From the NCBI RefSeq assembly GCF_013167455.1, contig NZ_CP038328.1: 64,000 nucleotides of DNA; one strand, given 5' to 3'. Position 1 is the first letter of the stretch. Every line of letters starts with the position of its first letter. Below, in pieces: positions 12,001-15,000 of this stretch. Made by a program: the position numbers. Source of the DNA: Escherichia coli O157:H7. Lineage in GTDB: Bacteria; Pseudomonadota; Gammaproteobacteria; Enterobacterales; Enterobacteriaceae.

Positions 12001-15000
12001 ATTCTCCAAAATTTATATTTAAGTAGCTGAATAAAGAGAGTTAACAATTAAGTCATTCTGTTATTGCTTATAAAACAAGAATCATTCTTGATTGGTTGTT
12101 GCCCTGAGAATATAGTTTCCAGGGTTATTACATTTCACGAAGAACGATAATATCTTTAAATCACAAGGACACCTAATCACAACAAGTTTATTGCTGCACT
12201 TGTTGAAGAGAGTATTTGCAAAAACATTTTATGTCGCTAAATAACATGACGATTTCATTATGCATGTTATTTATAAACCGTGACTAAACAGAATATTATT
12301 GCGAACAAGGGAAGTGTCAGGAAAGGTCAAGGGCTACTAATGGTTTATATGGCTATAAATCATTAGCTATAGTTAATGTTTGCCTGGTGTAACTAACACC
12401 GAATTGCTCTAAACAGATAAGTGCAGGGTTTATTAAAGCTGACCGACAGACTTTCTTAACCTGGTAATATCTCTCTTGGGTGACTCTCCAAACATCCGCA
12501 AATATTCCCGTCGGAAATGGGATAAGCTTTCGTAACCGACAGCATAGGCTGCTGTGGTGACATCGTAATGTTCATTCAGCATCGTTCGCCTGACTTCATT
12601 GAGACGTAGCCATTTCTGATACCGGAGTGGACTCATTCCCGCAAGCTGCCTGAAGTGTTGATGGAAAGAGGGCGTGCTCATTTGCACGCGGTTTGCCAGC
12701 TTGAGTCTTCAACGCTGGGAAGATGCGGCAAACGGCAAATCGGCATACCAGCCAGCCTATATCCGTCATGCACAGGCCAATTATGAAAGAGGAGAAGCTT
12801 AAGTTCTGGAATCCTGAACGAATAACGACTACCGGAAAATCACTTCGTATCACTCAGATACGATTTAACATAATATACATTATGCGCACCAATATAAACC
12901 AAGGGAGAATCTAGTCGTTGGCGGTCATGATTGTCCTGCTCATTAACAACGACCAAACCCCATATCTTACTCTTACTTAATACCGTATTCTCGGCTTAAC
13001 CGACCGTGCAACCTCAACACATTGGTTTCAACTGCCGTCACCACGTTCTCTGGAAAATCTGTCGGTAATGAAGTCTTCACGTTATCCAGTGCTGCCGGAA
13101 TCATTCTGGCAAAGTCACTCAGGATTTCATGCATCTGCACTTCCGGGAATCTCAGCACCTTTGCTGTCGCCAAAAAATGTCGCGGATAAATTTTATCGAT
13201 TGCCGTTTTTTTGCCTTTGGATGCGTTAAGCCCCATTGCCAGTTTGAGATCGCTGATGTGTATTCCCGTACCGCCAAGGACCGGAAATGCTGAAATGATG
13301 TCGTAAAATGGCGTGAGTCGATAACTGCCGCCAGCCTGAATAAATACGGAGAAGTTTTTTGCATGGCCATCCGTTGCGCCAATCAACCACTGGAAGACCT
13401 GGAATTTCATAAAATCATAACGATCGCGAAGCGCCTCGCTGAACCCCATCAAAAAAGCCATGATCCGCGCGATGCCTGGGCCTCCATCTGATTCATATTT
13501 CACCGATGAAGGTAAACCGAATGTCTGACACATATCCTCCTGTGGCAAGCGAAGTAAAACCGTTCGCTCAGCATTCCAACGCCTGTCAAAACGTTCGACC
13601 GCTAACGCGCGCACATTTCCCGCTTTAATGATTTCTGCGTCCGGGACATTCAACCCAAGTTCTTTCGCCAGCAGCAGACAGTAATACTCATTATCAACGC
13701 TTTGGCTGAGATCGAGCGTCGCATTGGGCTGCCTGATTTCCCCAATCGGTAATTTAATGATGTGCGTCGTCGGCGTTATTCCTTTCGGAATGCACCAGTC
13801 ATTGCCTATTCTGAGCAGTGCTGTCTTCTCCTGTGCGCCAGCAACCGAGATGCGAAAGTCATTTTCTTCTCTAATCATGCCTAGCGGGATATCTGCTTTA
13901 TAAGCCGTTAATACTTCTTCAAGTCTGACTTCAGTAAGCTTTTCCCATGCCATTATCGGACGCGTTACGGTTTCGTCTTCGGGTATTAACGTCACGGCAC
14001 CAACGCTGTCTCGCCCTATTTCTGACAATAAATCAAACTGTACGGGATAAACGCTGCGATATCCGCGATCGCGGATAAAAGGGAGGCTTTAAAAGCCTTT
14101 TGAAGTTGGCAATATTAAGCCGCATGCCATCTCGACATGCGGCTTATACTGTTTACCAGCTATATTTCACTCCCAGCATGCCCTGAGTATCGCTATAGCC
14201 TTTATCACCTAGTTGCACACCGACATTCCCCCACAGGCTAAGGTTGTTATTTACTTTCGCCTCAACCCCGGTACGTACTTCACCGAGATTTCGCGCACCA
14301 TCACGGCTTACGGTTTGACCATTCATCTTCACGGCGTAGACTTTGCTATTGTTGATCCAGTTCGCTTCAATGTAAGGCTGGAACTCACGCTGTTTACCAT
14401 CGTCACGCTGGTGATGGCTATTCAGGTAGGTTTTCACCCCAAGTCGCGTTTGCACGTTTCCGTCGCCTTCCGTTTCAATGCGCGTTCCGTCTTTCCGGGC
14501 ATGGTCAGAATCTTTCACACCCATCCAGGTGATTTGCGCCTGTGGCTGGACGTACCAGGTATTCAGCGTCCCTTCGCTGCCGCTACATGTTCCCGCTTCA
14601 AAGGTATACCCACCCTCAACAGAGGCCGTCACACCGCGAGAATCATAGTCGTCAGCAGAACGGTTATCGGAACTGACGCTGTTATCAAACCAGTTATACA
14701 GCGCCCAGCTGTCAACATAAGCGCCGGTCTTATTCGCATCGTTCTGATACCAGGTCGCGTACAGCCCAGCGCTGTAACCGCTGATGCGCCCATCCGATTT
14801 ATAACCCACACGATTACTCTGAGTATTACTGTGCTGATTGGCGTAGCCTGCCATCACGCCAAGATGCCAGCGATCCTGCGCGTTGCTACTCCACTGCGCC
14901 AAATCGCCGCCTAGCTGCAATACATAGCGGTTAGCCTGAGTATTTAGCTGGCCGTCTCCGGCACTGGAACGTTCGTGCCCCCCGACATGACGCATCCACA

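What the first reader, a model, noticed from the sequence alone, without database searches (positions are those of the whole stretch)
12433..12972. AraC-family regulator next to the fimbrial operon is only a C-terminal remnant
Only about 84 codons of AraC-type HTH are in frame, preceded by an in-frame stop. The 285 bp up to hipA contain no convincing N-terminal domain. Decay of the regulator, hipBA and the autotransporter in a row suggests this stretch is a hotspot of gene erosion.
Basis: seen in the sequence. Interest (0 to 1): 0.2.

Follow-up and report, generated by a model that had tools for sequence, protein, structure and literature searches.

The report
Known yneL pseudogene: AraC regulator remnant
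This stretch of E. coli O157:H7 is the already-annotated yneL pseudogene, the last 88 codons of a 304-codon AraC-type regulator left behind by an old deletion. It sits among other broken genes and is an ordinary case of gene decay.

Summary
Window 12433-12687 (- strand) is an 84-codon ORF with a strong AraC-type HTH match (Pfam HTH_18, E=8e-21). Nothing between it and hipA encodes an AraC N-terminal domain.

The window is E. coli O157:H7, and the feature is the yneL pseudogene. NCBI's PGAP annotation calls it "missing N-terminus".

Full-length orthologs have 304 aa (AraC_N + HTH_18). They occur in Citrobacter, Enterobacter and Klebsiella michiganensis, and on an argW island in about 90 E. coli genomes. 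The remnant aligns only to their residues 216-304.

Homology stops at 12701|12702. The next 60 bp (+ strand) are codons 226-245 of the alpha/beta-hydrolase gene that lies divergently beside the regulator in those orthologs. One deletion of about 1.6 kb therefore removed both 5' ends and the shared promoter region. The "in-frame stop" lies in hydrolase-derived antisense DNA.

The rest of the 285 bp holds a DUF2255 gene start and a conserved noncoding piece.

Neighbours are also decayed. hipA lacks about 85 codons and hipB is deleted. The autotransporter is frameshifted and carries a Tn5393-like transposon. Other E. coli lineages show different deletions at the same place.

Verdict: already known, low interest.

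The parts
12433..12701 (-). yneL pseudogene: the last 88 codons plus stop of an AraC_N-type AraC-family regulator, equal to residues 216-304 of the 304-aa orthologs. It includes the 84-codon GTG ORF 12433-12687.
   Evidence: Pfam HTH_18 E=8e-21. tblastn/blastn to full-length orthologs ends at 12701/12702. PGAP pseudogene 'missing N-terminus'.
12709..12711 (-). In-frame TGA upstream of the remnant. It lies beyond the deletion junction, inside hydrolase-derived antisense DNA, so it is not a nonsense mutation of the regulator.
12702..12761 (+). 60-bp fragment (codons 226-245 of 365) of the alpha/beta-hydrolase gene that lies divergently beside the regulator in intact loci. It abuts the AraC remnant directly.
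   Evidence: blastn 88-92% to L010 6367-6426, L012, L014 and L091. tblastn 16/20 and 18/20 identical residues, LSLQRWEDAANGKSAYQPAY.
12783..12827 (+). Relic of the ribosome-binding site and first ~8 codons of a DUF2255 gene, which follows the hydrolase in Klebsiella and Enterobacter. The start codon is lost (ATG to AAG).
   Evidence: The homologous stretch in K-12-type and PD23 strains matches L005 5753-5710 and L011 4348-4305 at 82-91%. In the window itself it was identified by reading the sequences side by side. DUF2255 Pfam E=1e-37 for L005:5364-5735.
12863..12941 (.). Conserved noncoding piece with a short palindromic core (CATAAT-ATAC-ATTATG). In other genera it lies farther along the same AraC-hydrolase cluster. 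Its function is unknown.
   Evidence: blastn to L010 4717-4795 (76%), L011 2915-2982 (84%), L012 5926-5976 (88%) and L015 7552-7582 (97%).
12973..14082 (-). hipA pseudogene. Its first ~85 codons, all of hipB and 94 bp of promoter region were removed by a 614-bp deletion relative to K-12-type strains. The junction is at 14038-14041.
   Evidence: PGAP 'missing N-terminus'. HipA_C Pfam match. blastn against the K-12-like locus.
14153..17765 (-). 3' part of the ECSE_1600-family autotransporter pseudogene (yneO-like), with a frameshift near 15550. The 5' part continues at 24468-26291.
   Evidence: ORFs 14153-15553 and 15550-17517. PGAP 'frameshifted'. Collinearity with the O157 reference.
17766..24470 (.). 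6.7-kb Tn5393-like transposon inserted in the autotransporter pseudogene. It carries Tn3-family tnpA, a resolvase, IS1133, aph(3'')-Ib and aph(6)-Id.

Best explanation
Window 12433-12972 is a gene graveyard left by the decay of a small accessory cluster. That cluster held an AraC_N-type AraC-family regulator, a divergently transcribed alpha/beta hydrolase, and a DUF2255 gene. A single deletion, 1572 bp when measured against the Citrobacter youngae arrangement, removed three things. These were the first 215 codons of the regulator (its whole AraC_N sensor domain plus helix 1 and part of helix 2 of the first HTH), the shared divergent promoter region, and the first 225 codons of the hydrolase. 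Regulator codon 216 was fused back-to-back to hydrolase codon 226 at 12701|12702. A further deletion then removed hydrolase codons 246-365 and its terminator. The surviving piece is yneL. It has no promoter of its own, no Shine-Dalgarno sequence before its GTG or ATG, no sensor domain and an incomplete DNA-binding domain, so it is a non-functional pseudogene. The junction is shared by divergent E. coli lineages, so the event is old. Different lineages have since trimmed the relic in different ways. Shown directly: the homology limits, the junction, the orthologs and the strain variants. Inferred: the order of events and the lack of function.
For: The window is 100% identical to E. coli O157:H7, and PGAP annotates three consecutive pseudogenes there. 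Intact 304-aa orthologs with AraC_N + HTH_18 were found. Homology to them covers only residues 216-304, at 87-89% DNA identity, and stops at 12701. The adjoining 60 bp match the interior of the divergent hydrolase gene at 88-92% DNA identity and 16-18 of 20 residues, with no filler at the junction. MS10860 and A36, about 93% identical to the window over this region, have the same junction. No DNA of the N-terminal 215 codons sits in place of the remnant in any of 5426 complete E. coli genomes. Only 98 genomes carry it at all: about 87 at >=99% identity to the argW-island copy, and at least one (PD23) as a foreign insert. K-12-type alleles (3024 genomes) instead join AraC residue ~236 to the hydrolase stop codon and terminator hairpin and carry a 1-bp frameshift. 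B2 strains have lost the AraC piece entirely but keep hydrolase codons 246-278 plus SDR and LysR fragments. Protein databases hold dozens of differently truncated or frameshifted versions of 50-160 aa. dN/dS among the E. coli remnants is ~0.3 (8 non-synonymous, 7 synonymous changes), against 0.03-0.17 among intact orthologs. O157-specific changes hit conserved motifs: NEARRLML has become NEVRRTML, and SHFSREY has become SHFRREY. A homolog of the hydrolase lies near the regulator gene in 52 of 87 related loci, in most of them upstream on the opposite strand.
Against: dN/dS of ~0.3 rests on 15 substitutions and is below the neutral value of 1, so some residual constraint cannot be excluded. One paper reports that yneL gives regulated microarray signal in K-12 (PMC9308461), so the region may be transcribed. 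The O157 allele keeps an uninterrupted 84-codon ORF. The full-length ancestor at this exact position in the Escherichia lineage was not observed; it is inferred from other genera whose loci are not syntenic with E. coli outside the cluster.
Confidence: 0.93

Rival explanations
1. The gene is essentially full length, and a sequencing error or a single frameshift or nonsense mutation only makes it look truncated.
For: There is an in-frame TGA just upstream of the ORF. A forced MAFFT alignment produced look-alike motifs (GYRL, IGWL) in other frames upstream.
Against: tblastn with full-length relatives finds nothing upstream of 12702 in any frame. Only 270 bp separate the junction from hipA, while 645 bp would be needed. 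The upstream DNA is identifiably hydrolase and DUF2255 sequence. The sequence is identical in independent complete O157 genomes.
Confidence: 0.01
2. The remnant is a functional small stand-alone HTH protein, in the manner of MarA or SoxS, or a dominant-negative fragment. It would be retained because it does something, for example near the F9 fimbrial operon.
For: The 84-codon ORF is intact in O157. dN/dS of ~0.3 is below 1. Microarray signal is reported for K-12 yneL (PMC9308461). Some strains carry an ORF fusing the HTH fragment to a FimA-like domain (P0071 and P0073).
Against: It lacks helix 1 and most of helix 2 of the first HTH, since alignment starts at residue 216 and at Pfam HTH_18 profile position 6. 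No Shine-Dalgarno sequence precedes the GTG or ATG. The promoter scan is not above shuffles: 8 sites against 4.6 +/- 2.0. The majority K-12-type allele is shorter and frameshifted. B2 strains have deleted it completely while keeping the F9 operon. Orthologs pair with a hydrolase, not with fimbriae.
Confidence: 0.04
3. The regulator was split by insertion of a mobile block (hipBA, the autotransporter or an island), and its N-terminal half survives elsewhere.
For: hipBA is a toxin-antitoxin module with patchy distribution. In other strains the DNA beyond the remnant is replaced by quite different content, such as restriction genes in PKF8 and IS elements in PD23.
Against: There is no N-terminal AraC_N match anywhere in the 64-kb window. 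Only 98 of 5426 E. coli genomes contain that DNA at all, about 87 of them at >=99% identity to the argW-island copy. The sequence abutting the break is the interior of the divergent hydrolase gene, which is the signature of a deletion spanning both 5' ends, not of an insertion.
Confidence: 0.02

Closest known systems
yneL (b1506) of E. coli K-12, annotated as an AraC-family pseudogene
   Same: Same chromosomal locus between the F9 (ydeQRST) fimbrial genes and hipA. Same gene remnant, in the same orientation. Annotated as a pseudogene in RefSeq and in the literature.
   Different: The O157 allele is a different deletion product. It keeps AraC residues 216-304 in one frame and abuts hydrolase codons 226-245. 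The K-12 allele keeps only residues from ~236, carries a 1-bp frameshift, and abuts the hydrolase stop codon and terminator hairpin.
Intact AraC_N-type regulators: WP_000622442.1 on the argW island of E. coli D7, and orthologs in Citrobacter youngae, Enterobacter vonholyi, E. mori and Klebsiella michiganensis
   Same: 87-89% DNA and 88-91% aa identity over the shared 88 codons. Same family signature (MS.PSFHQHFRQL.GMSPL.YQKWLRLNEARRLML).
   Different: They have 304 aa, with an AraC_N (PF06719) sensor domain and a complete two-HTH domain. They sit divergently from an alpha/beta hydrolase and are not next to fimbrial genes.
MarA / SoxS (stand-alone AraC DNA-binding domains; comparison from general knowledge)
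   Same: Small size and HTH-only content.
   Different: MarA and SoxS contain the complete seven-helix bipartite domain and have their own promoters. The remnant starts inside helix 2 of the first HTH and has no evident translation signals.
Independent remnants of the same regulator in the Klebsiella pneumoniae complex
   Same: The same regulator gene is truncated. K. pneumoniae ATCC 13883 (L015) has an open frame of only 109 codons, and P0039 and P0121 have other breakpoints.
   Different: Different genomic context (a DeoR/FGGY sugar-kinase cluster) and different breakpoints, so these are independent losses.

Membership tests
AraC/XylS family transcriptional regulator (functional member) | Complete C-terminal DNA-binding domain of about 100 aa with two helix-turn-helix motifs | tested here: not met
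   The HTH_18 match starts at profile position 6. PF00165 matches only the second HTH, at residues 43-71. Alignment to 304-aa orthologs starts at residue 216, whereas PF00165 places the first HTH from residue 209 of the 310-aa relative P0122. Helix 1 and part of helix 2 are therefore missing.
AraC/XylS family transcriptional regulator (functional member) | Sequence homology to the family's HTH region | tested here: met
   HTH_18 E=8.1e-21. 88.6% identity to WP_000622442.1 over 88 residues.
AraC_N (PF06719) subfamily of AraC regulators | N-terminal AraC_N sensor/dimerisation domain of about 150 aa | tested here: not met
   No match in any frame of 12688-12972 or elsewhere in the window. Orthologs have it at E~1e-48.
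Pseudogene (decayed relic of a once-functional gene) | Truncated relative to intact orthologs, with an identifiable breakpoint | tested here: met
   The junction at 12701|12702 joins AraC codon 216 to hydrolase codon 226.
Pseudogene (decayed relic of a once-functional gene) | Independent further disruptions in related strains, and relaxed constraint | tested here: met
   K-12-type frameshift and shorter allele, complete loss in B2, and many truncated variants. dN/dS ~0.3 against 0.03-0.17 for intact orthologs, on small counts.
Pseudogene (decayed relic of a once-functional gene) | No expression of a protein product | not testable with these tools
   No Shine-Dalgarno sequence or convincing promoter was seen. 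A paper reports microarray signal for K-12 yneL. Ribo-seq or proteomics is needed.

The most novel reading that the evidence does not exclude
The 84-codon ORF, or the DNA itself, may retain a role. For example, a peptide carrying only the second HTH could be expressed by read-through from upstream, or the relic could serve as part of the upstream regulatory region of the F9 fimbrial operon. That would explain why an uninterrupted frame persists in O157 and related lineages with dN/dS below 1.
Probability: 0.04. Interest if true: 0.35.

Novelty: already known. Interest (0 to 1): 0.08.

Why it matters
It matters little. yneL is already annotated as a pseudogene in K-12 and by PGAP in O157:H7.

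This analysis adds the origin of the relic. It comes from a deletion spanning the 5' ends of a divergent regulator-hydrolase pair, which leaves recognisable scraps of three genes in 540 bp. The analysis also documents that the interval between the F9 fimbrial operon and the lsr operon is a recurrent site of deletion, replacement and insertion across E. coli lineages.

This is useful for annotation. The 60-bp hydrolase fragment and the DUF2255 start are not annotated as such in the O157 record. The adjacency to the fimbrial operon should not be read as a regulatory link.

Tried and rejected
- **Residual N-terminal homology in shifted frames.** A MAFFT alignment with a Klebsiella gene suggested GYRL/GYRI and IGWL/IDWL look-alikes upstream of the junction. 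I rejected this once blastn and tblastn showed that this DNA is the antisense of the hydrolase gene and that tblastn finds no AraC_N signal.
- **A naturally short MarA-like protein.** The word-indexed protein search returned only 50-160-aa proteins, which suggested the ancestor might have been short. The exhaustive representative search and the genome scan then found 300-326-aa relatives and 304-aa orthologs at 88-91% identity.
- **Klebsiella loci L003-L006 as references.** These come from assemblies in which many genes, including this one, are split into several ORFs, so they were not used as the intact reference.
- **Rfam scan of 11000-15000.** Only one sub-threshold hit, at E=0.42.
- **Promoter and terminator scan.** Not above shuffled expectation.
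- **An intact copy in place of the remnant in E. coli.** The only full-length copy near the locus, in strain PD23, lies beside an ordinary remnant. It is 97.8% identical to Enterobacter vonholyi and is flanked by IS elements, so it is a foreign insert.
- **Global gapped alignment of 12762-12862 to Citrobacter and Enterobacter.** This gave only scattered short blocks. The DUF2255 relic was recognised only by direct comparison with Klebsiella.

Full report
**Identity of the window and the feature**

The 801 bases around the finding are 100% identical to complete E. coli O157:H7 chromosomes, and some part of that query matches 5424 of 5426 complete E. coli genomes.

In O157:H7 strain ECP19-598, PGAP annotates the following, in window coordinates:
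- an intact six-gene fimbrial operon (fimA-like major subunit, chaperone, 883-aa usher, ydeS, ydeR, ydeQ);
- a pseudogene, 'helix-turn-helix domain-containing protein; incomplete; missing N-terminus', at 12433-12702;
- a HipA-family toxin pseudogene, 'missing N-terminus', at 12973-14082;
- a frameshifted ECSE_1600-family autotransporter starting at 14153.

This is the locus called yneL in K-12. The only paper found that discusses it states that YneL is annotated as a pseudogene (PMC9308461).

**Checking the observation**

The - strand ORF 12433-12687 has 84 codons and a GTG start. It matches Pfam HTH_18 at E=8.1e-21, but only from profile position 6. It matches PF00165 only over the second HTH.

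The frame is closed upstream by a TGA at 12709-12711. The interval to the hipA stop codon, 12688-12972, is 285 bp. The two other small ORFs in that interval have no domain. So the description is accurate.

**What a full-length version looks like**

A word-indexed protein search returned only fragments of 50-160 aa, mostly from E. coli and with many different artificial N-termini. That is itself a sign of a decaying locus.

An exhaustive HMMER search with a 128-aa Klebsiella version found relatives of 300-326 aa. These carry AraC_N (PF06719, E~1e-48) followed by HTH_18.

A scan of one genome per species found open frames of 310-335 codons that contain the 304-aa ortholog, 88-91% identical to an E. 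coli yneL fragment (P0001) used as the query. They occur in Citrobacter youngae, Enterobacter vonholyi, Enterobacter sp. MGH24, E. mori and Klebsiella michiganensis.

Within E. coli, about 90 genomes carry an intact 304-aa copy (WP_000622442.1). It lies on an island next to tRNA-Arg and intS, together with an alcohol-dehydrogenase fragment and an alpha/beta hydrolase.

**Where homology ends, and what lies beyond**

The remnant aligns to residues 216-304 of the 304-aa protein, at 88.6% aa and 88.5% DNA identity. Nothing upstream aligns.

DNA homology to the regulator stops at window 12701. From 12702 to 12761 the + strand is 88-92% identical to an internal piece of the alpha/beta-hydrolase gene. 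It encodes LSLQRWEDAANGKSAYQPAY, which matches 16 of 20 residues of the C. youngae protein and 18 of 20 of the E. coli D7 protein, at codons 226-245.

In C. youngae, the Enterobacter loci and K. michiganensis, this hydrolase lies divergently, directly upstream of the regulator. A homolog is present near the regulator in 52 of 87 related loci, including many Pseudomonas.

The junction carries no filler. It reads ...GAAGACTCA|AGCTGGCAA..., where the left side is hydrolase antisense and the right side is AraC. Relative to C. youngae this is one 1572-bp deletion (L010 6427-7998). It removed both 5' halves and the shared promoter region.

It follows that the 'in-frame stop' lies in hydrolase-derived antisense DNA. 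It is not a nonsense mutation of the regulator.

**The rest of the 285 bp**

- Positions 12783-12827 correspond to the ribosome-binding site and first ~8 codons of a DUF2255 gene, which follows the hydrolase in Klebsiella and Enterobacter. The start codon has changed to AAG.
- Positions 12863-12941 match a noncoding piece that lies farther along the same cluster in Citrobacter, Enterobacter and Klebsiella.
- No homolog was found for the short stretches between these relics.

**Other E. coli alleles**

- MS10860 and A36, about 93% identical to the window over this region, share the O157 junction. The primary deletion therefore predates the split of these lineages.
- The K-12-type allele is present in full in 3024 genomes. 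It is a different secondary product. The AraC part starts about 20 codons later and carries a 1-bp frameshift. It abuts the hydrolase stop codon and terminator hairpin rather than codons 226-245.
- B2 strains such as A0 34/86 have lost the AraC piece completely. They keep hydrolase codons 246-278 plus fragments of an SDR oxidoreductase and a LysR regulator.
- These alleles imply an ancestral relic longer than any surviving one.
- DNA for the N-terminal 215 codons occurs in only 98 of 5426 genomes, and in none of those examined does it replace the remnant.
- In strain PD23 a full-length copy lies beside an ordinary remnant. It is 97.8% identical to E. vonholyi and flanked by IS3 and ISEc21, so it is a recent foreign insert.

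**Function of the remnant**

The remnant lacks several things a working regulator needs:
- the sensor domain;
- helix 1 and most of helix 2 of the first HTH;
- a Shine-Dalgarno sequence before its GTG or ATG;
- a promoter signal above background, since the scan gave 8 sites against 4.6 +/- 2.0 in shuffles.

Nei-Gojobori comparison gives dN/dS ~0.3 between E. coli remnants (8 non-synonymous and 7 synonymous changes), against 0.03-0.17 among intact orthologs. O157-specific replacements fall in conserved motifs: NEARRLML has become NEVRRTML, and SHFSREY has become SHFRREY. This indicates relaxed constraint, though the counts are too small to prove neutrality.

I conclude it is a dead relic (confidence 0.93). 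A residual role is not strictly excluded (about 0.04).

**The 'erosion hotspot' idea**

The following differences support it:
- Compared with a K-12-like strain, O157 has a 614-bp deletion. It removed hipA codons 1 to ~85, all of hipB and 94 bp upstream.
- K-12-like strains in turn lack 3279 bp of the fimbrial operon, window 8899-12177.
- MS10860 has lost everything from mid-hipA to yneE.
- A36 runs from near the remnant into a truncated lsrA.
- PKF8 has restriction-system genes in place of hipBA.
- In this window the frameshifted autotransporter is additionally split by a 6.7-kb transposon.

**Relation to the fimbrial operon**

None of the intact orthologs examined lies next to fimbrial genes. 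Their conserved neighbour is the hydrolase. The ancestral regulator therefore most likely controlled the divergent hydrolase, as inferred from conserved divergent synteny. Its position upstream of the F9 operon in E. coli is probably incidental.

**Verdict**

This is a correct but ordinary observation of a known pseudogene. The new information is limited to its mode of origin and the catalogue of lineage-specific variants.

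Noticed in passing
window 17766-24470: A 6.7-kb Tn5393-like transposon carrying Tn3-family tnpA, a resolvase, IS1133, and aph(3'')-Ib and aph(6)-Id (streptomycin resistance). 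It is 100% identical to plasmid copies and is inserted in the autotransporter pseudogene. It is absent from O157:H7 ECP19-598, and 8 bases are repeated at its two ends. Only 1 of 5426 complete E. coli genomes (FRIK1989, bovine) has this junction.
   Followed up: yes
window 12761/12762 versus L093 5001-5101 (E. coli A0 34/86, phylogroup B2): The hydrolase fragment kept in O157 (codons 226-245) ends exactly where the fragment kept in B2 strains (codons 246-278) begins. Two supposedly independent deletions thus share a breakpoint within about 3 bp. A motif CCAGCCTAT / CCAGGCTAT occurs at the O157 junction and downstream of the hydrolase terminator in K-12, which hints at microhomology-mediated deletion. 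The coincidence remains unexplained.
   Followed up: partly
L095 6730-9200 (E. coli PD23, pig, Cuba): A full-length AraC_N regulator, 97.8% identical to that of Enterobacter vonholyi, sits immediately beside the ordinary yneL remnant. It replaces hipBA and is flanked by IS3-family and ISEc21 elements. Its first ~6 codons appear to have been replaced at the IS boundary.
   Followed up: partly
L091/L092 5164-10236 (E. coli D7, ET915): About 90 E. coli genomes carry an intact copy of the regulator, a truncated iron-containing alcohol dehydrogenase and the alpha/beta hydrolase. These lie on an island integrated next to tRNA-Arg and intS, so the module is horizontally mobile.
   Followed up: partly
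window 12863-12893: A conserved core of about 30 bp with an inverted repeat (CATAAT-ATAC-ATTATG). It is 97% identical in Klebsiella pneumoniae ATCC 13883 and also present in Citrobacter and Enterobacter, at variable distance from the regulator-hydrolase pair. Its function is unknown.
   Followed up: no
window 8899-12177: The F9-type fimbrial operon is complete here (major subunit, chaperone, full 883-aa usher). K-12-like strains have a 3.3-kb deletion that removes the major subunit, the chaperone and the usher N-terminus (ydeT pseudogene).
   Followed up: partly
L015 7929-8258, L090 8001-8465, L003-L006: The same regulator is independently truncated in the Klebsiella pneumoniae complex, with different breakpoints and in a DeoR/FGGY sugar-kinase context. 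This suggests the gene is recurrently lost in enterobacteria.
   Followed up: partly
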